A stretch of 64,000 nucleotides of DNA, from the sequence record MN709127.1; one strand, written 5' to 3'. Origin of the DNA: Escherichia phage Ec_Makalu_002. The notes under the pieces were generated by a model. That model worked only from the letters and a program-made list of their open reading frames with translations, was not told the DNA's origin and made no database searches. The position numbers and the translations under genes are program-made. Shown in pieces: positions 50,973-57,063 of this stretch; position 1 is the stretch's first letter, and the number at the start of each line of letters is the position of its first letter.

Positions 50973-53024
50973 TTACATTTTAAATTTATCCGGCATAGCG
51001 TCTACAGACACAAGATCAGCGATAAGCTGACGTAGAGTTGCCTTATCTGCTTTCTTACGTTCGGTTTTAGCTTCGGTAATGAAGCTGGAGAAAGACAGGT
51101 CAGAAGCAGGTTTAACAACACCTTCACGGATGAATGCATCACCGTCCGCGATCATCTCACCAGATTCTTGTAATGCTGCCAGTTCATTTTTGTTCATAAT
51201 ATGTGCCTCGATGTAATAAGTTTCTTGTGAATCCGTCGATGCCGTAGCACGAGTTACCGTATCAAAGGATAACACAACACCGCGAGGAAGTAAAATCTCG
51301 CATTCTTTGTAAGCAAATGCTTTGTTACCTACTGGCAATACAGGGATGTTTTCCGCGCCAGCAATGGAGAAAGCAACATTAGCGCCACCTTCACCGCGAG
51401 ATCCCGCCATAGAATCAACACCAGCAACGGCACTAGCCACGTTTGCATTCCAGCCACCAAAAATATTAGGTGCAAGGGAAGTGCTCACATAGTTTTTAAA
51501 GTAAAACGCTTTTTGCTTACGTGCAGTTTCCCACATTTGCGACCGGAAGTCCATACCACGATACAAGATAGTACCTGGATCAAGTTTAACACCATAGTTA
51601 GCAAATGCGTTATCCAGTGCATCACACATCTTGACCAATTCTTCTGGGTCTGCGATGCCTTCAAACTCTTCCAGCTTACGGTCGGTTAGGAAGTTGTTCA
51701 TATTGATGTATGCTGCATCCGCATATTCGCTCAACACAAAACCTTCCGCGCCAGGCAGATCAAGATCAATATCTGCCATCATTTCACCCATGTTGCTAGC
51801 AATTGCTTCAAACATACCGGAAGCAACATTACGCAGGGCATCGGTTTTAATCTGCGTGATGTGACTACGCAGCATTTCAGCTTTTACATCTGCTGGCATA
51901 GACTGGTCGACGCGATCCATTGCCAGGGCGGTGATCTTGTTTTCGAATACTTCCTCGCTCATGATTTCTTTTAAGCGTTTGATTGATGCTGCGATGACTT
52001 CCGCAGACAACGGATCATATTGATCCTGAACTTTTACCAGTTCGCTTACTGCATATTTTGCATCGGCTTCGCTTTCAAAAATAGTACGCATGAAACCATA
52101 GCGAGTGATAATATCACTTGTCCAGTCATTCAGAGAACGGGCGGTTGAACGTTCTAAGGCTTGACGGTCAATCAGAGTATTAAACTGTTTCTTAGGTTCT
52201 GCTTCGGTGATATCTTCTTCCGGTTTAAGATTAATTTTTTCTGGATGATTCACATAGTCGCTGTTATAGGTCGCTTGAGTTTTCAGCATTTCTTCTTTAG
52301 TCAAACGAGATTTAGCCGCTACGCGTTGTTCTGCTTCCGCGTTTCGTTCTTCTTCCGACACAAGACTAGCCGCATACGCCTCATCTTTAGTCAGAGATTC
52401 ACCAGTAGCCTTAGATACCCAGCGATCACCTAAATCACTTTCTACTTTAGTGAACAGGGATTCATCGAGTTTAATCCCTTTAATCTTATCAATCGCCATC
52501 CCGCGACGTTTGACAACAACTAAAGCGATCTTTTTGCTGGTCATTACTTCCTGCTGGAATACTTCAAACTTCGGTGTACGACGCACCAAACGCTCTATAA
52601 CGCGCTTAACCAGTTCGGTCTTACCTTTCATGCGGGATACGTTAAAACGGAACATAACAGCGTCTAATTGCGCTTTACGGGCTGTTTCCATGACCACATC
52701 AAAAGCACTTGACATAACTGCAATCGGGTTATCTCCTAGACCATTTTTAAGCTGTACAATACGACCGCTTTTGTTCATTTCGCACAGTACAACATGTGCG
52801 GTCTTGTCACCCATACGAATGATTTTAGGTGTTTTGTTGGTGAAGTTACAAAGACGGACAATCACATCTTTATCGCGTGTCTGTACTGCAAAAAGCTGTT
52901 TAGGATTCTGCTTAGGCTTTAAGCACTGTACCGGAGCAATACTGCCAAAGTTTTCTTCCTCTTCCGTCAACAGCCATTTCTCGAAAGATTCAATCATTAG
53001 ATCGTCGATTTCTAAGTTAAACAT
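50973..53024 (-). CDS. alt: ADP-ribosyltransferase Alt
   Basis: 683 aa (T4 Alt 682 aa); C-terminal R-S-E motifs LYRGMD, YVSTS, ECEILLPRG; position next to gene 54. Confidence 0.8.
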   Translation of the reverse strand: MFNLEIDDLMIESFEKWLLTEEEENFGSIAPVQCLKPKQNPKQLFAVQTRDKDVIVRLCNFTNKTPKIIRMGDKTAHVVLCEMNKSGRIVQLKNGLGDNPIAVMSSAFDVVMETARKAQLDAVMFRFNVSRMKGKTELVKRVIERLVRRTPKFEVFQQEVMTSKKIALVVVKRRGMAIDKIKGIKLDESLFTKVESDLGDRWVSKATGESLTKDEAYAASLVSEEERNAEAEQRVAAKSRLTKEEMLKTQATYNSDYVNHPEKINLKPEEDITEAEPKKQFNTLIDRQALERSTARSLNDWTSDIITRYGFMRTIFESEADAKYAVSELVKVQDQYDPLSAEVIAASIKRLKEIMSEEVFENKITALAMDRVDQSMPADVKAEMLRSHITQIKTDALRNVASGMFEAIASNMGEMMADIDLDLPGAEGFVLSEYADAAYINMNNFLTDRKLEEFEGIADPEELVKMCDALDNAFANYGVKLDPGTILYRGMDFRSQMWETARKQKAFYFKNYVSTSLAPNIFGGWNANVASAVAGVDSMAGSRGEGGANVAFSIAGAENIPVLPVGNKAFAYKECEILLPRGVVLSFDTVTRATASTDSQETYYIEAHIMNKNELAALQESGEMIADGDAFIREGVVKPASDLSFSSFITEAKTERKKADKATLRQLIADLVSVDAMPDKFKM

Positions 53025-53065
53025 TTTATATCCTCTAGTTGATAACCTATAAACCTATATTTATG

Positions 53066-53088
53066 AAAAAGGGGCTTAACACCCCCAT
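53066..53088 (-). terminator. Minus-strand terminator upstream of alt
   Basis: GGGGGTGTTAAGCCCC followed by T-run on minus strand. Confidence 0.5.
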
Positions 53089-53091
53089 TTA

Positions 53092-53304
53092 TTATAATGC
53101 ACCATCGAGCAATTGCTCTAAGGTGTATCCTGAATAGTCTTTTTCAATCAGGATATATTTTCCTACTCGTTTAATACAACCGCGCATTTCAACGTATTCT
53201 GCGTAGTTGATGGTGCGAGTTGTTCCATCTTCTAGTAAAGCAGTACCGATTTCGTTAATGCGGTCATAAGTTACGTCGGTAATGATGATTTCGATGTTAG
53301 CCAT
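53092..53304 (-). CDS. Hypothetical early protein
   Basis: 70 aa; ATG preceded by conserved AGGAG leader. Confidence 0.5.
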   Translation of the reverse strand: MANIEIIITDVTYDRINEIGTALLEDGTTRTINYAEYVEMRGCIKRVGKYILIEKDYSGYTLEQLLDGAL

Positions 53305-53340
53305 TTGATACTCCTTAGTAGTTCGTTTCGGTATGGGTGT

Positions 53341-53369
53341 ATTATGATATACACCCTCTGTTATGTCAA
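53341..53369 (-). promoter_or_regulatory. Early sigma70-type promoter (TTGACA-17-CATAAT)
   Basis: Member of the repeated promoter/leader module family. Confidence 0.5.
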
Positions 53370-53375
53370 CAACTT

Positions 53376-53555
53376 TTAGAACATTTTTGAAATTAATTCT
53401 GCTTTGATTTCGCAGAGAACATCTAAAGATTTCTCGTCACCCGCTTTTGCTGCTTCTGCTTGCATTTTTGAAATGGCTTCAATGTCAGTGCAATTATAAG
53501 CCGCTTGAACTTTAGCGATTGCGATGATTGCCGATTCGATGGTTAAGTGTTTCAT
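53376..53555 (-). CDS. Small hypothetical early protein (59 aa)
   Basis: ATG preceded by conserved leader ...AAAGGAGAATCAAAC; below ORF-track cut-off. Confidence 0.45.
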   Translation of the reverse strand: MKHLTIESAIIAIAKVQAAYNCTDIEAISKMQAEAAKAGDEKSLDVLCEIKAELISKMF

Positions 53556-53587
53556 GTTTGATTCTCCTTTCGTTTCGGTATGTGTGC

Positions 53588-53616
53588 AGTATAGGGGATC
53601 GCCGATCCCCTGTCAA
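53588..53616 (-). promoter_or_regulatory. Early promoter with palindromic spacer (TTGACA-GGGGATCGGCGATCCCC-TATACT)
   Basis: Hexamers at 17-bp spacing; the spacer is a GATC-containing hairpin. Confidence 0.6.
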
Positions 53617-53623
53617 CAACTTT

Positions 53624-54142
53624 TTAGTTATTTTTTAATTGCTCATCTTGCAATAATGCAATCACATGCTGGCGATGTTCTTCCGATTGAGGAACACCGA
53701 AAAAGTTTGTTTTGTAGAAATACTCTAATCGGTCTTCTCGTGTGCTCTCTTCCATCATGATCGCGGGTAGTCCAAGATTTCGGAAACGTCGCTTTTCTGC
53801 TGGCGTAAAATCACTGTAATACAACATAGAATCATCATTACCAGCAATGCTAAACTCATCCTTCATAAAGGAGAATATTGCGTTTAAACGCTGTTTACCG
53901 TCCACGATTTCGATCTCATAGCGAGAGCCATCATCAATCTTAGCCATTGCGATAGCACCAACCGGAAAATCATTAATCAGGTTTTCGATAAACATACGTT
54001 TGTTTTCGGTGTCCCATACCAAAGGACGCTGATAATCTGGGTTCATGTTGATATAGCCATCTTCTAACCACGCCTCATAAACAGAGATGACAAAGTTTTT
54101 AGTATTGGTATAGTAACGGCGTTTAGGCGTTAAACGGTTCAT
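53624..54142 (-). CDS. DUF262 (ParB/Srx-like, GmrSD N-terminal-type) domain protein
   Basis: YQRPLVWD ... IVDGKQRLNAI resembles the DUF262 DGQQR motif; ORF track starts at TTG 54178, ATG 54142 has AGGAGA site. Confidence 0.55.
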   Translation of the reverse strand: MNRLTPKRRYYTNTKNFVISVYEAWLEDGYINMNPDYQRPLVWDTENKRMFIENLINDFPVGAIAMAKIDDGSRYEIEIVDGKQRLNAIFSFMKDEFSIAGNDDSMLYYSDFTPAEKRRFRNLGLPAIMMEESTREDRLEYFYKTNFFGVPQSEEHRQHVIALLQDEQLKNN

Positions 54143-54143
54143 G

Positions 54144-54476
54144 TTATAGTCTCCTGAATGGATCATCACGTAAATCAATATCTTTTAAGAACTCATCCCA
54201 TGAATGGCGGATAATGTTCTTAATTCTCCAGATAAGCGCAGGGATTGAACGCTCTCCCATCTGGAAGTAAGGATCATATGATCCATATGCCCAATATGCT
54301 ACTACAATTCCACAATCGGCGCAATAATATTCTATTTCACTTGCTGGCGACCAAAGTCCATCAATATGATCACGGATCTTGCTTTCGATGTTATGGCTAT
54401 GGCAATCAGGGCAACGGATGCAATGACCTTGTTTATCGTAATTTGACGTTAGCGAATACTTAAACAATCTCATCAT
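54144..54476 (-). CDS. Zinc-ribbon protein
   Basis: CIRCPDCHSH ... YCADCG (paired CxxC); start overlaps stop of upstream gene (ATGA). Confidence 0.5.
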   Translation of the reverse strand: MMRLFKYSLTSNYDKQGHCIRCPDCHSHNIESKIRDHIDGLWSPASEIEYYCADCGIVVAYWAYGSYDPYFQMGERSIPALIWRIKNIIRHSWDEFLKDIDLRDDPFRRL

Positions 54477-55189
54477 AGATCCTTATTGGCTTCAAATACT
54501 GCCTTTGCGAATCCTCGCGGGGTAAGTGACCTGATAGTCTTTGTTCTGGTTCCTTTCCCGCCTAGCTTAGAATGCTGTTTACTGTACCCTTTATTAATCT
54601 GCAACGGTTTCTTTTCTGGCATTATAAAGCCTTGTCCGGTCCATAAGCAAGTCTTTTTCGGGTACATATCACGGGCGGCAATATACTCAGGAAACGTAGG
54701 ATGCTTATCATCTTCCGGCAAATAACCGCCATATTCCCACGGATGGAACATGTAATCAGGCTTACGCCACATGCTAGAGATAACGCTTACAGGATTCTCT
54801 ATCATGTAGGGAACTCCTAGCCATTCACCCAAATAAGCGGTTATTTTAGCTGCCCTTACATCATGAACTTGAATTAATGGTCCTTGTTCTCGTTTCTTTC
54901 GTTCAAAGTGCGCAGCGCCACTAACAGCTAAATTGGTGCATGGTGGGAATGCAAAGATAATATCCGGTTTCCCCCATTCAAGGTCCATTGCTCTTTCCAG
55001 CCAATTTAAATCAATCCATGTGTTTACATATGTAATGTTTGGATGTTCAAATCGGGTATTATATTTTTTGTATGTACCGTGGTCGCCATCGTCAGCATTA
55101 AAGCAGATCACCTTATGACCTGCTTTAGCCCATTCTAACCCCATTATCCCCGATCCGTCAAAGTTGCAGAATATTAATTTTTGTTTCAT
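54473..55189 (-). CDS. Compact C5-cytosine methyltransferase-like protein
   Basis: FDGSGIMG (motif I-like), FPPCTNLAVSG (PC motif IV), MIENPV (ENV motif VI), RSLTPRGFAKAV (RxLTPRE-like); 238 aa. Confidence 0.55.
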   Translation of the reverse strand: MKQKLIFCNFDGSGIMGLEWAKAGHKVICFNADDGDHGTYKKYNTRFEHPNITYVNTWIDLNWLERAMDLEWGKPDIIFAFPPCTNLAVSGAAHFERKKREQGPLIQVHDVRAAKITAYLGEWLGVPYMIENPVSVISSMWRKPDYMFHPWEYGGYLPEDDKHPTFPEYIAARDMYPKKTCLWTGQGFIMPEKKPLQINKGYSKQHSKLGGKGTRTKTIRSLTPRGFAKAVFEANKDL

Positions 55190-55431
55190 ATACGCCCCTT
55201 TAACCCAACACAGATTTTAGAAGGTTCTTTGCCGTGCCACATTAAGTAAATTCCGTTAATGCGTCCTTGTTTTGTATATGATTCTTTTCTGATCTTCTTA
55301 TAGTGTCGTGCTTCCTCAGCCGATTGTTTAGAATGTCGATCATAAAGGAAGAGGAACAAAGGCCAACCATTAGCGGCCTTAATGCAGTTATTCAAAAATT
55401 CCTTATTTCGTTTAATTAATTTTCTTTTCAC
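55186..55431 (-). CDS. Hypothetical basic protein
   Basis: 81 aa; apparent GTG start overlapping upstream stop (GTGA); no in-frame ATG nearby. Confidence 0.45.
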   Translation of the reverse strand: MKRKLIKRNKEFLNNCIKAANGWPLFLFLYDRHSKQSAEEARHYKKIRKESYTKQGRINGIYLMWHGKEPSKICVGLKGRI

Positions 55432-55679
55432 GCTGCCCCCATTGGTTTGATAGTAACAGAATCTAAAAGACCTTTGTTAGCCAGTTCGCGGCAAGTTTTC
55501 AGATCCGCAACTTCCCAGCCAGCCGCAATAAGGTTATCAATGAGGCTGTTAGCAACTTCTTCGCTCATGAAAGAGCACTGTTTGCCGATGGTGTAGCGTA
55601 CACGCTGTAATTTCAGTTTACGGAAGCCTTTAACGTTCAGGTCTTTAGCGATTTTCTTTGCGGTTTCGATGTTAGCCAT
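55428..55679 (-). CDS. Hypothetical early protein (first gene of five-gene operon)
   Basis: 83 aa; ATG preceded by TTAGGAGAATCAAAC leader and promoter module. Confidence 0.5.
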   Translation of the reverse strand: MANIETAKKIAKDLNVKGFRKLKLQRVRYTIGKQCSFMSEEVANSLIDNLIAAGWEVADLKTCRELANKGLLDSVTIKPMGAA

Positions 55680-55719
55680 TGTTTGATTCTCCTAAGTGGT
55701 ATCTCGTCTTGATGGTTGT

Positions 55720-55748
55720 ATTGTAGGGGAGTTATCCTCCCCTGTCAA
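55720..55748 (-). promoter_or_regulatory. Early promoter with palindromic spacer (TTGACA-GGGGAGGATAACTCCCC-TACAAT)
   Basis: Hexamers at 17-bp spacing; spacer forms a hairpin. Confidence 0.55.
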
Positions 55749-55762
55749 CACTTTTTATAAAA

Positions 55763-55930
55763 TTATTTGTTAATTTCTGGTGCGTTGCTAGGATAGTAAC
55801 CTTCTTTAACTCCGAGGTATTTCGCAACCATCCCTACAATCTTCTGTGCTACTACAATGTCAAATTTCAGATAATCTTCGCCGTGGGTTTCAATGATATA
55901 TGCTTCACATGCTGCTTTAGTCTCGAACAT
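55763..55930 (-). CDS. Small protein (55 aa), duplicated gene copy A
   Basis: MFETKAACEAYIIETHGEDYLKFDIVVAQKIVGMVAKYLGVKEGYYPSNAPEINK; near-identical to 59046..59213. Confidence 0.5.
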   Translation of the reverse strand: MFETKAACEAYIIETHGEDYLKFDIVVAQKIVGMVAKYLGVKEGYYPSNAPEINK

Positions 55931-55963
55931 TTTGATTCTCCTATTTCGTTTCGGTATGTGTGT

Positions 55964-55992
55964 ATTATAGGGGATCTCCCGATCCCCGTCAA
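55964..55992 (-). promoter_or_regulatory. Early promoter with palindromic spacer (TTGACG-GGGATCGGGAGATCCCC-TATAAT)
   Basis: Hexamers plus GATC-containing hairpin spacer. Confidence 0.55.
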
Positions 55993-56006
55993 CAACTTTT
56001 TTAAAA

Positions 56007-56288
56007 TTATTCGTGATTAGTTTCGATATTGTGCATTTTGCACCAGTTCAGCCAATCGCCAAGATCTTGATAGTTGATGCTTTTATCTGCTGCCATCGTT
56101 TTTGTCTTGATACCCATATGTGCGTTATGAGTAAGCATTTTTACAGTGAACTCAATTTTATCGCCTTTAGCTTTAACATCAACCAGTTTGGTCCACTGGC
56201 TACCAGCACCGCGAATGTTCATACCAACGATGTTTCCGATGTATGCTTCTTTGTTGTTCAGGATTTCGGTTGCTTTGATGAATTTCAT
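56007..56288 (-). CDS. Hypothetical early protein
   Basis: 93 aa; ATG behind conserved leader. Confidence 0.5.
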   Translation of the reverse strand: MKFIKATEILNNKEAYIGNIVGMNIRGAGSQWTKLVDVKAKGDKIEFTVKMLTHNAHMGIKTKTMAADKSINYQDLGDWLNWCKMHNIETNHE

Positions 56289-56321
56289 TTTTGATTCTCC
56301 AGTTCGTTTCGGTATGGGTGT

Positions 56322-56350
56322 ATTATGCTATGTTCTTACTTTGGTGTCAA
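56322..56350 (-). promoter_or_regulatory. Early promoter (TTGACA-17-CATAAT)
   Basis: Repeated module; non-palindromic spacer. Confidence 0.55.
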
Positions 56351-56358
56351 CAACTTTT

Positions 56359-56628
56359 TTAGATATTTTCAGAAATAAATTTTAAAACTTGACGTAAATG
56401 TTTCTCATCTTTGATAGTCGCCGGAAGTTCTTCTTTTACTTCCTGTGCAAGATAGATATTTCCGTTCCAAGTGAAAGACCCGTCTTCGTTTACGCGATAG
56501 CTGAACATCCATTCGCAATCATTTTCGATTTCATATACACACAGAAGGGTGTAATCTTCAAAGCTATTGATTTCAAGGTCGAAGCCGTGGCGTTTTGCAA
56601 AGTTGGTAGTGGTTTTAGTCAGTGCCAT
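56359..56628 (-). CDS. Hypothetical early protein
   Basis: 89 aa; ATG behind conserved leader. Confidence 0.5.
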   Translation of the reverse strand: MALTKTTTNFAKRHGFDLEINSFEDYTLLCVYEIENDCEWMFSYRVNEDGSFTWNGNIYLAQEVKEELPATIKDEKHLRQVLKFISENI

Positions 56629-56668
56629 TGTTTGATTCTCCTAAGTGGTATCTCGTTTCGATGGGTGT

Positions 56669-56698
56669 ATTATGCTATAGGCGTGATCAGGTGTCAAT
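56669..56698 (-). promoter_or_regulatory. Early promoter (TTGACA-18-CATAAT)
   Basis: Repeated module. Confidence 0.5.
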
Positions 56699-56722
56699 GC
56701 CTTTTTTAAAATTTTATGCAAT

Positions 56723-56747
56723 AAAAAAGCCGACACTAAGGTCGGCT
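56723..56747 (-). terminator. Minus-strand terminator after paralogue P1
   Basis: AGCCGACCTTAGTGTCGGCT followed by TTTTTT on minus strand. Confidence 0.55.
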
Positions 56748-56754
56748 AATAAAA

Positions 56755-57063
56755 TCATTTAGACAAATAATCATTCAGTGCAATCCGGTCGGCATGTTCC
56801 GGCGTTACATCAATCGCAATCACTTTAACGCGTGCTTTCTTGCGACCTGGGTTTTCTCGTAACCAGTGCTCATGACCGTGAACATTTTTATACTGCGATG
56901 CTTCTTCGAAGGTACGGATCGGACCAGGGTAATCAGCGTAAAGGATCTCTAGGTCATCGGTGATGTAAAAATATACGTTGTAATTACTGTTCTCTAGCTT
57001 AAGCAGAGACTTTCGGAACATTGGGAGATTTTCGCGGGTAAATTCAAAAGTAATATCTTTCAT
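56755..57063 (-). CDS. HxHW-family paralogue P1
   Basis: ATG 57063 with GAGGA site (ORF-track start 57210 overlaps upstream gene); motifs YFYITDDLEI, HGHEHW, VIAIDV. Confidence 0.5.
   Translation of the reverse strand: MKDITFEFTRENLPMFRKSLLKLENSNYNVYFYITDDLEILYADYPGPIRTFEEASQYKNVHGHEHWLRENPGRKKARVKVIAIDVTPEHADRIALNDYLSK

What the first reader, a model, noticed from the sequence alone, without database searches (positions are those of the whole stretch)
53624..55679. Five-gene early operon pairing a compact C5-cytosine-methyltransferase-like protein with a zinc-ribbon protein and a DUF262 (GmrSD N-terminal-like) protein
Behind one hairpin-spacer promoter (55720-55748), five ORFs are chained by overlapping stop/start codons (ATGA, GTGA or a single-nucleotide gap): 83 aa, 81 aa, a 238-aa protein with C5-methyltransferase motifs (FDGSGIMG, FPPCTNLAVSG, MIENPV, RSLTPRGFAKAV) but no room for a normal target-recognition domain, a double-CxxC zinc ribbon, and a 172-aa protein with the DUF262 signature (YQRPLVWD...IVDGKQRL). 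DUF262 is the NTPase/ParB-like half of GmrSD-type type IV restriction enzymes that attack modified cytosine DNA. A phage-encoded stand-alone DUF262 co-transcribed with a cytosine-C5-methyltransferase-fold enzyme suggests a cytosine modification or anti-restriction module. I cannot match it to a described system.
Basis: partly seen in the sequence, partly recalled or inferred. Interest (0 to 1): 0.7.

Follow-up and report, generated by a model that had tools for sequence, protein, structure and literature searches.

The report
Mosaic early operon with orphan methylase
This is a known early-gene cassette of RB49-like (Krischvirus) coliphages that strings together five independently mobile accessory genes, including a compact Dcm-like cytosine methyltransferase from a widespread phage family already shown to be active, and a minimal DUF262/ParB-fold protein of unknown role; it is not a conserved multi-gene modification system.

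Summary
Five minus-strand ORFs (83, 81, 238, 110 and 172 aa) are chained by GTGA/ATGA overlaps or a 1-nt gap. They sit between two hairpin-bearing sigma-70 promoters, which are the published PeSL cassettes of RB49-type phages. The window is a Krischvirus, and RB49 has carried these genes since its first annotation (RB49p187-190).

The 'module' reading fails. In 78/80 DUF262-anchored and 78/80 MTase-anchored viral loci, none of the other four genes lies within 10 kb. The block also varies inside the genus. DNA of a phage carrying this operon (TB34) showed no detectable modification by HPLC/MS.

Most likely this is a hyperplastic-region mosaic: an orphan anti-restriction methylase plus unrelated accessory genes. 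Interest is low to moderate. The solo DUF262 family remains functionally open.

The parts
55720..55749 (-). PeSL early promoter (TTGACA-17-TACAAT) with a GGGGAG/CTCCCC stem-loop in the spacer; drives the five-gene unit
   Evidence: PeSL promoter and terminator functions were shown experimentally for RB49/phi1 in PMC2839356. The same site is annotated as a promoter in GEC-3S.
55428..55679 (-). 83-aa ORF (RB49p190 homologue), found only in Krischvirus, function unknown
   Evidence: phrog_14908 E 5e-59. tblastn finds it in 56 phage records, all at >=95% identity. Weak match to the C-terminal part of the PADLOC RT_UG35 model, E 2.6e-5.
55186..55431 (-). 81-aa ORF with GTG start (RB49p189.1 homologue), function unknown; the most variable and dispensable of the five
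   Evidence: phrog_7065 E 1.5e-37. Relatives occur in T5-like phages, Dhakavirus and Karamvirus. Found at >=80% identity in only 48 records, against 56 for its neighbours. Absent from one Krischvirus contig.
54473..55189 (-). 238-aa compact Dcm-like C5-cytosine DNA methyltransferase (RB49p189 homologue); catalytic Cys84, Glu131; ~30-aa loop (residues 186-215) in place of a TRD
54144..54476 (-). 110-aa CxxCxxC...CxxC zinc-ribbon protein (RB49p188 homologue), function unknown
   Evidence: phrog_2993 E 1e-33. Weak Zn_Ribbon_TF match, E 4e-4, below the cut-off. Relatives occur in 9g-like and FelixO1-like phages, not next to methyltransferases.
53624..54142 (-). 172-aa stand-alone minimal DUF262 (ParB/Srx-fold, GmrSD_N) protein (RB49p187 homologue); motifs YQRxxVW, DGKQR, NFxGVPQSEEH; no nuclease domain
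53588..53617 (-). Next PeSL cassette (TTGACA-17-TATACT with a GGGGATC/GATCCCC hairpin); closes the unit and starts the next gene
   Evidence: Its 79-bp cassette is tandemly duplicated in phage SAP relative to TB34.

Best explanation
The region is one early, PeSL-driven polycistronic cassette in a hyperplastic (accessory-gene) region of an RB49-like Krischvirus. It was assembled from five independently circulating small accessory genes. It is not a co-evolved system.

Two products have assignable biochemistry.

(1) The 238-aa protein is an orphan, compact 'Dcm-like' SAM-dependent C5-cytosine DNA methyltransferase. Early after infection it most likely methylates a short cytosine motif on phage (and host) DNA through the Cys84/Glu131 covalent mechanism. 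This would protect the otherwise unmodified, cytosine-containing genome from methylation-sensitive restriction. The cost is that it becomes a possible trigger for methylation-sensing defences such as retron Ec86. Its specificity is presumably set by the ~30-aa loop between motifs VIII and IX (residues 186-215). That loop differs from the one in the characterised KarlJaspers/K42 enzyme, so the CCWGG target proposed for K42 may not apply here.

(2) The 172-aa protein is a complete minimal DUF262/ParB-Srx nucleotide-binding domain without any nuclease. It most likely acts on its own as an NTP-dependent DNA- or protein-binding accessory factor, plausibly in counter-defence.

The 83-, 81- and 110-aa products are unrelated small accessory proteins.

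What is shown: gene structure, promoter type, folds, motif conservation, family membership and lack of linkage. What is inferred: the anti-restriction role, the target motif and any activity of the DUF262 protein.
For: Identity and annotation. The region is 99.9% identical to Ec_Makalu_003 and 97.7% to RB49, where it corresponds to RB49p187-190.

Promoters. PeSL promoters flank the block and none lies inside it. PeSLs are described as mobile promoter-terminator cassettes that shuffle ORFans in hyperplastic regions (PMC2839356).

Methyltransferase.
- phrog_757 E 2e-90.
- Invariant F10/G12/S13/G14, P82/P83/C84, E131/N132/P133, K178 and R220...R225/G226 across 54 homologues of 55-64% identity.
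- AF2 pLDDT 91.
- 56% full-length identity to KarlJaspers Bas06 Dcm-like, a 711-bp gene, with C82/E128/K175-176 aligned to C84/E131/K178-179.
- The K42 enzyme comes from a genome 95.4% identical to KarlJaspers. Expressing it produced 5mC on msDNA by LC-MS, and this depended on those residues.

Need for protection. Krischvirus DNA contains plain cytosine (PMC6563267; TB34 HPLC/MS). The window shows extreme restriction-site avoidance.

No module.
- 78/80 loci for each anchor lack every partner within +/-10 kb, by tblastn and by profile HMM.
- Immediate neighbours of both anchor genes are lineage-specific, and no small CxxC protein sits next to the methyltransferase elsewhere.
- The five genes have different distributions: 1,524, 334, 305, 172 and 56 phage records.
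- kaaroe and FL04 carry an extra 59-aa ORF inside the block, and one Krischvirus contig lacks the 81-aa ORF.
Against: The five genes are translationally coupled and are co-conserved at >=95% identity in about 56 Krischvirus genomes. That pattern is also what a functional unit would look like. With so little divergence in the genus, conservation there cannot separate function from shared ancestry.

The target motif of this enzyme is untested. The K42 experiments were done in the dcm+ strain MG1655, and the CCWGG assignment rests on one msDNA mutant.

BASEL found no simple link between phage methyltransferase genes and restriction resistance (PMC8594841).

No 5mC was reported in TB34 DNA. A sparse motif could, however, fall below HPLC detection; this is my inference.

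DUF262 domains of host systems do sense cytosine-modified DNA, and Dazbog is triggered by a phage cytosine methylase. The adjacency could therefore be meaningful.
Confidence: 0.7

Rival explanations
1. One reading: the methyltransferase and the solo DUF262 (possibly with the zinc ribbon) work together. The methyltransferase marks phage DNA with 5mC. The nuclease-less DUF262 protein shields it by acting as a decoy or dominant-negative partner for host DUF262-based, modification-sensing defences (GmrSD/BrxU, Dazbog, SspE/DndI, Menshen NsnA).
For: The genes are translationally coupled and co-conserved in all Krischvirus records. The DUF262 protein keeps every core motif and superposes on the N-domain of BrxU. 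It scores E 1e-20 against Menshen NsnA and 5e-12 against PD-T4-2_A. Host DUF262 systems recognise modified cytosine DNA, and Dazbog is triggered by a phage C5 methylase. A host GmrS1 (a DUF262-family ParB_N domain without the HNH nuclease) must pair with GmrSD2 for defence, which shows that such domains can act in trans.
Against: There is no co-occurrence outside the genus in 156/160 anchored loci. The solo DUF262 sits in methyltransferase-free contexts such as Slopekvirus and the P22-like ea region. An unrelated 59-aa ORF separates the zinc-ribbon and DUF262 genes in kaaroe and FL04. No interaction data exist.
Confidence: 0.12
2. The solo DUF262 protein is a phage-carried exclusion or host-takeover factor: an NTP-dependent ParB/Srx-type DNA binder or nickase acting on host or competitor-phage DNA, independent of the methyltransferase.
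Against: It has no recognisable DNA-binding HTH or nuclease domain, since the whole 172 aa is the DUF262 core. No catalytic-metal motif was identified. Nothing here separates this from the decoy idea.
Confidence: 0.12
3. The TRD-less methyltransferase is a non-specific cytosine methylase that feeds a genome-wide hypermodification pathway. This would explain the unexplained 5-hmdC and glucosyl-methyl-dC reported in Krischvirus SAP.
Against: TB34 has unmodified DNA, yet its five ORFs are base-for-base identical to SAP's. The only local differences are a duplicated 79-bp PeSL downstream of the block and two intergenic 1-nt indels. RB49-type DNA is described as plain cytosine. No TET-like oxidase or glycosyltransferase turned up among the products of this block scanned with Pfam. 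The homologous K42 enzyme gave 5mC.
Confidence: 0.03

Closest known systems
Phage 'Dcm-like' C5-cytosine methyltransferase of Drexlerviridae (KarlJaspers Bas06 bas06_0055 / K42 Dcm; phrog_757)
   Same: Same length class (236 vs 238 aa). 56% identity end to end. The same catalytic residues align: C82/E128/K175-176 to C84/E131/K178-179. Same compact architecture with a ~30-aa loop instead of a TRD. Both are orphan genes in early or accessory regions.
   Different: The loop between motifs VIII and IX is of the 'GYSxQH' class here and the 'DNPGW' class in KarlJaspers and FritzSarasin, so the target sequence may differ. The genomic context also differs: a T4-type PeSL cassette here, near a helicase in siphoviruses. 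Activity and retron triggering have not been tested for the Krischvirus enzyme.
Canonical C5-cytosine DNA methyltransferases (PF00145: M.HhaI, M.HaeIII, DNMT3A/B catalytic domain)
   Different: Sequence similarity is below Pfam's cut-off (13.9 vs 22 bits), and neither the protein nor the family profile gives any PDB sequence hit. The TRD is reduced to ~30 residues. The protein ends right after the motif IX helix, with no separate GN-type motif X. Motif IV is PPCT rather than PCQ.
GmrSD / BrxU type IV restriction enzymes and other DUF262 defence proteins (SspE, DndI, Menshen NsnA, Dazbog)
   Same: The 172-aa protein shares the DUF262 (ParB_N-like) domain with its three motifs: QRxxVW, DG(K/Q)QR and F..N..G.
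   Different: It has no DUF1524/HNH or other effector domain. It lacks the ~90-residue insertion that BrxU has between motifs 2 and 3. It is phage-encoded, expressed early and solitary.
PeSL (promoter-early stem-loop) cassettes of RB49/phi1 and other T4-like phages
   Same: Consensus sigma-70 hexamers, an upstream A/T tract, a GGGG...CCCC stem-loop, intergenic position and clustering in hyperplastic regions.
   Different: None found. These are instances of the described element. Here one PeSL serves five coupled ORFs rather than a single ORFan.

Membership tests
C5-cytosine DNA methyltransferase (PF00145 superfamily) | Motif I FxGxG SAM-binding loop | tested here: met
   F10, G12, S13 and G14 are invariant in 54 homologues. 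The motif lies in the first beta-alpha unit of the model.
C5-cytosine DNA methyltransferase (PF00145 superfamily) | Motif IV Pro-Cys catalytic nucleophile and motif VI ENV glutamate | tested here: met
   P82-P83-C84 and E131-N132-P133 are invariant. They align with C82/E128 of the K42/KarlJaspers enzyme, whose C82A/E128A/K175A/K176A mutant was inactive.
C5-cytosine DNA methyltransferase (PF00145 superfamily) | Score above Pfam's gathering threshold for PF00145 | tested here: not met
   13.9 bits against a cut-off of 22, covering residues 10-100 only. No PDB sequence hit with the protein or the family profile.
C5-cytosine DNA methyltransferase (PF00145 superfamily) | C5-MTase three-dimensional fold | tested here: met
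C5-cytosine DNA methyltransferase (PF00145 superfamily) | Sizeable target-recognition domain between motifs VIII and IX | tested here: not met
   Only about 30 residues (186-215, pLDDT about 78-82) separate strand 180-185 from the motif IX helix. This loop is the most variable segment and falls into two sequence classes.
C5-cytosine DNA methyltransferase (PF00145 superfamily) | Formation of 5-methylcytosine in DNA | not testable with these tools
   Reported by LC-MS for the K42 homologue. Not measured for any Krischvirus enzyme. TB34 DNA showed no detectable modified nucleoside.
Phage Dcm-like methyltransferase family (phrog_757) | Full-length profile match and collinearity with characterised members | tested here: met
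   phrog_757 E 2.1e-90, residues 1-237. 55-64% identity to homologues of 219-259 aa. 56% identity to KarlJaspers over 238 columns.
[quoted passage not shown] | N-terminal DUF262 domain with the DGQQR-type motif | tested here: met
[quoted passage not shown] | C-terminal DUF1524/HNH nuclease domain | tested here: not met
   The protein ends at residue 172. The single AF2 domain is entirely DUF262. The next feature is a PeSL, and no downstream fused or overlapping ORF exists. It is therefore not a GmrSD enzyme.
ParB/Srx superfamily NTPase domain | ParB_N/sulfiredoxin fold with an arginine-rich nucleotide-binding motif | tested here: met
PeSL regulatory cassette | Consensus sigma-70 promoter plus G-tract/C-tract stem-loop in an intergenic spacer of a hyperplastic region | tested here: met
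   (4 copies vs 0.01 expected). Definition taken from PMC2839356.
   78/80 DUF262-anchored and 78/80 MTase-anchored IMG/VR loci (+/-10 kb) contain none of the other four genes. The four exceptions are two Krischvirus contigs seen from both anchors. Neighbour clustering finds only lineage-specific partners.

The most novel reading that the evidence does not exclude
The nuclease-less, minimal DUF262 protein is a new class of phage counter-defence factor. It would be a molecular mimic of the sensor/NTPase domain of host DUF262-based, modification-dependent defences (GmrSD/BrxU, Dazbog, SspE/DndI, Menshen). It would poison or titrate those defences, and in Krischvirus it would be co-expressed with the Dcm-like methyltransferase to neutralise the defences that the phage's own 5mC mark would otherwise trigger.
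Probability: 0.1. Interest if true: 0.7.

Novelty: new member of a known kind. Interest (0 to 1): 0.28.

Why it matters
The practical value is mostly corrective. The locus should be annotated as a PeSL-driven mosaic that carries a Dcm-like orphan methyltransferase. It should not be called a new modification system.

Three points have some wider use.

(1) The compact, nearly TRD-less C5-methyltransferase family is very common in enterobacterial phages (1,524 of about 50,700 genomes) and its sequence specificity is essentially unmapped. The two loop classes seen here give a concrete handle for asking how about 30 residues can specify a target.

(2) This gene may make Krischviruses visible to methylation-sensing defences such as retron Ec86. 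That matters when choosing phages for therapy.

(3) Solo minimal DUF262 proteins form a widespread viral family with no assigned function. They are the most likely place for something new, and a clean biochemical target.

The analysis also shows that the unexplained difference in cytosine modification between phages SAP and TB34 cannot be attributed to the coding sequences of this operon.

Tried and rejected
- Sequence searches of the 238-aa protein against PDB chains, with the single sequence and with the family profile, found nothing. Only fold comparison linked it to C5-MTases.
- NCBIfam gave no match for the methyltransferase or the DUF262 protein.
- I followed the lead that SAP (modified DNA) and TB34 (unmodified) differ by about 80 bp inside this region. 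The difference is a tandem duplication of the downstream PeSL and leaves all five ORFs identical, so I rejected it as an explanation.
- I looked for a trans-acting specificity partner, such as a zinc ribbon, next to methyltransferase homologues elsewhere. None of 147 neighbouring ORFs was a small protein with two or more CxxC motifs.
- I looked for a conserved partner of the solo DUF262. Neighbours are lineage-specific: Ead/Ea22 in P22-like phages, and a 304-aa ORF with no Pfam match in Slopekvirus.
- The word-indexed homologue search for the DUF262 protein returned only 7 proteins. The exhaustive HMMER search was needed.
- The Rfam scan of 52500-57000 found nothing.
- CCWGG depletion (27 observed vs 76 expected) cannot be read as evidence for or against CCWGG methylation. 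Dozens of other palindromes are depleted as well.
Full report
**1. What is there**

The window is a Krischvirus, an RB49-like 'pseudo-T-even' myovirus. Positions 53400-56000 are 99.9% identical to Escherichia phage Ec_Makalu_003 and 97.7% identical to RB49, and 55 of 63 matching phage records cover at least 80% of the query.

The five ORFs are real. They correspond to RB49p190, p189.1, p189 ('DNA methyltransferase'), p188 and p187.

Upstream lies TTGACA-17-TACAAT with a GGGGAG/CTCCCC hairpin in the spacer. The hairpin folds at -19.4 kcal/mol, z = -6.3. A second copy of the same composite element starts 7 nt after the last stop codon, and no copy lies inside the block. These elements are the PeSLs (promoter-early stem-loops) described for RB49/phi1. 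PeSLs are strong sigma-70 promoters fused to stem-loop terminators. They cluster in hyperplastic regions and mediate insertion, deletion and exchange of ORFans (PMC2839356; also PMC4122927). GEC-3S annotates the same sites as promoters.

**2. The 238-aa protein**

- Pfam's PF00145 matches only weakly (13.9 bits, cut-off 22), and there is no sequence match to any PDB chain.
- The protein is a full-length member of PHROG 757 'DNA methyltransferase' (E = 2e-90).
- The family is very large: 7,317 database proteins and 1,524 of 50,697 phage genomes. It spans Drexlerviridae, Dhillonvirus, Vequintavirinae, Webervirus and other groups.
- Across 54 homologues of 55-64% identity, F10-G12-S13-G14, P82-P83-C84, E131-N132-P133, K178 and R220-S-L-(T-P)-R225-G226 are invariant.
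- The AlphaFold2 model is confident (pLDDT 91.2).
- Only about 30 residues (186-215) lie where canonical enzymes carry the target-recognition domain.

The family is not undescribed. The BASEL collection annotates it as 'Dcm-like C5 cytosine methyltransferase'. A 2023 preprint identified the 711-bp dcm gene of phage K42, whose genome is 95.4% identical to KarlJaspers Bas06, as the trigger of retron Ec86. In that work, expressing the gene produced 5mC on msDNA by LC-MS, and a C82A/E128A/K175A/K176A mutant was inactive. I retrieved the KarlJaspers gene. It is 711 bp long and 56% identical to the window protein over its whole length, and those four residues align to C84, E131, K178 and K179.

One difference matters. 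The TRD-equivalent loop belongs to a 'GYSxQH' class in the window protein (83 of the 120 closest homologues, plus 6 with Phe in place of Tyr). It belongs to a 'DNPGW' class in KarlJaspers and FritzSarasin (19 of 120). The CCWGG specificity proposed for K42 cannot simply be transferred to this enzyme.

**3. The 172-aa protein**

- PF03235 (GmrSD_N/DUF262) matches at E = 4e-20. PADLOC's Menshen NsnA model matches at 1e-20.
- A profile of the small family aligns three motif blocks to BrxU: YQRxxVW, DGKQR and F..N.xG(VPQSEEH). It skips a ~90-residue BrxU insertion.
- The protein is therefore a complete but minimal DUF262 core. It has no DUF1524/HNH nuclease, so it is not a GmrSD enzyme.
- An exhaustive HMMER search shows that its closest relatives are a family of 155-190-aa solo proteins, plus forms of about 270 aa with an unassigned N-terminal extension.
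- tblastn finds the small form in 305 phage genomes, including Slopekvirus, other T4-like enterobacterial phages and P22-like phages. Structural relatives occur widely in phages and giant viruses.
- None has a characterised function in the literature I could search.

**4. Is it a module?**

The five genes have unrelated distributions:

| Gene | Phage records | Where else it occurs |
|---|---|---|
| Methyltransferase (238 aa) | 1,524 | Drexlerviridae, Dhillonvirus, Vequintavirinae, Webervirus and others |
| Zinc ribbon (110 aa) | 334 | 9g-like, FelixO1-like |
| DUF262 (172 aa) | 305 | Slopekvirus, other T4-like phages, P22-like |
| 81-aa ORF | 172 | T5-like, Dhakavirus, Karamvirus |
| 83-aa ORF | 56 | Krischvirus only |

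I fetched 80 IMG/VR loci anchored on DUF262 relatives and 80 anchored on methyltransferase relatives, each with +/-10 kb. I searched them with all five proteins by tblastn and with family HMMs. In each set, 78 of 80 loci contain only the anchor gene. The four exceptions are two Krischvirus contigs seen from both anchors.

Clustering the immediate neighbours shows only lineage-specific partners. No small CxxC protein lies next to any other methyltransferase homologue, which argues against the zinc ribbon acting as a trans-acting TRD.

The block is also plastic inside the genus. Kaaroe and FL04 carry an additional 59-aa ORF between the zinc-ribbon and DUF262 genes. One Krischvirus contig lacks the 81-aa ORF. 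That ORF is found at >=80% identity in only 48 records, against 56 for its neighbours. This is the pattern expected from PeSL-mediated shuffling in a hyperplastic region. It is not the pattern of a co-evolved system.

**5. Is there a cytosine hypermodification?**

Krischvirus DNA is described as containing cytosine and no 5-hydroxymethylcytosine (PMC6563267). A 2026 study found no detectable modified nucleoside in TB34 by HPLC/MS (PMC13390438). TB34 carries this operon at 97.9% identity to the window.

The same study reports that SAP, 99.96% identical to TB34, is fully modified (5-hmdC and glucosyl-methyl-dC) by an unknown pathway. My first search showed an ~80-bp length difference between SAP and TB34 inside this region, so I aligned the two. 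The difference is a tandem duplication of the 79-bp PeSL just downstream of the DUF262 gene, plus two single-base intergenic indels. The five ORFs are identical. The operon's coding sequences therefore cannot explain SAP's modification.

The window also shows extreme restriction-site avoidance. Ten 6-bp palindromes, including GAATTC, AAGCTT and GGATCC, have zero copies where 8-29 are expected. GGCC, CCWGG and CCSGG are at about 0.37 of expectation. That fits a phage with unmodified DNA that relies on site avoidance plus, plausibly, a methyltransferase for residual sites.

**6. Most likely mechanism**

*Shown:* an early PeSL unit encodes a catalytically intact, compact C5-MTase from a family with reported 5mC-forming activity, and a complete nuclease-less DUF262 domain. 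The genes are not linked outside the genus.

*Inferred:*
- The methyltransferase methylates a short motif on replicating phage DNA to blunt methylation-sensitive restriction.
- It may expose the phage to methylation-sensing defences such as retron Ec86 or Dazbog-type DUF262 systems.
- The DUF262 protein binds a nucleotide and acts independently, possibly in counter-defence.

BASEL's finding that methyltransferase genes do not simply predict restriction resistance is a caveat for the anti-restriction role.

**7. Rivals**

- A cooperative MTase-DUF262 decoy model is attractive. Host DUF262 domains sense modified cytosines and the genes are translationally coupled. The co-occurrence data argue against it, and I give it about 0.12.
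- A methyltransferase-independent exclusion or takeover role for the DUF262 protein gets a similar weight.
- A role in genome-wide hypermodification is very unlikely (about 0.03), given the TB34/SAP comparison.

**8. Verdict**

Both components are members of known kinds, the promoter is a known element, and the 'five-gene system' is a lineage-specific mosaic. Interest is low to moderate (0.28). What remains open is the function of the solo minimal DUF262 family and how a nearly TRD-less C5-MTase selects its target.

Noticed in passing
whole window (1-64000): Extreme restriction-site avoidance. There are zero copies of TCCGGA, GAATTC, ACCGGT, AAGCTT, GGATCC, CCGCGG, AGCGCT, CAGCTG, CTGCAG and GGTACC, where 8-29 of each are expected. 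GGCC is 28 vs 74 expected, CCWGG 27 vs 76 and CCSGG 15 vs 39. GATC is not avoided (372 vs 352).
   Followed up: partly
L003 (phage SAP, OZ034687) 658-736 vs L004 (TB34); equivalent to window ~53560-53625: SAP has reportedly hypermodified cytosines and TB34 has unmodified DNA. In this locus they differ only by a tandem duplication of the 79-bp PeSL cassette downstream of the DUF262 gene and by two 1-nt intergenic indels. This indel accounts for 79 of the 112-bp genome length difference. It may be a PeSL recombination product or an assembly artefact.
   Followed up: yes
L006 (kaaroe) 1043-1222 and L007 (FL04) 1042-1221; insertion point = window ~54143: Some Krischviruses carry an extra 59-aa ORF, overlapping at both ends, between the zinc-ribbon and DUF262 genes. 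It has no PeSL of its own and no Pfam match.
   Followed up: partly
window 55186-55431; L010/L091 (IMGVR_UViG_3300045988_033703): The 81-aa GTG-start ORF is the least conserved of the five (87.7-98.8% identity, against >=95% for the others). It is found at >=80% identity in only 48 phage records, against 56 for its neighbours. It is missing, together with the 3' end of the 83-aa ORF, in one Krischvirus contig. Its relatives occur in T5-like phages, Dhakavirus and Karamvirus.
   Followed up: partly
window 55428-55679: The Krischvirus-only 83-aa protein matches residues 722-785 of the PADLOC model for the defence-associated reverse transcriptase UG35 (E 2.6e-5). This may be a shared small C-terminal domain or chance.
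   Followed up: no
window 54473-55189, residues 186-215 of the product: The TRD-equivalent loop of the compact methyltransferase family falls into two sequence classes: 'G[YF]SxQ', which includes the window protein, and 'NPGW', which includes KarlJaspers and FritzSarasin. These may be two specificity types.
   Followed up: partly
P0145-P0276 (metagenomic relatives of window 53624-54142): Many close relatives of the solo DUF262 protein are 260-290 aa long, with a ~120-aa N-terminal extension that has no Pfam match. One relative fuses DUF262 to a Schlafen AlbA_2 domain.
   Followed up: no
L008 (Klebsiella phage PMBT1) 2480-3918: In Slopekvirus the small DUF262 gene overlaps by 4 nt a conserved 304-aa ORF with no Pfam match. 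A related downstream ORF recurs in 7 loci. This could be a lineage-specific partner.
   Followed up: partly
window 50973-53024 (- strand): A 683-aa Alt-like RNA polymerase ADP-ribosyltransferase gene lies just downstream of the accessory-gene run. The region between it and ~57000 is a dense series of single small ORFs, each with its own PeSL-type promoter.
   Followed up: no
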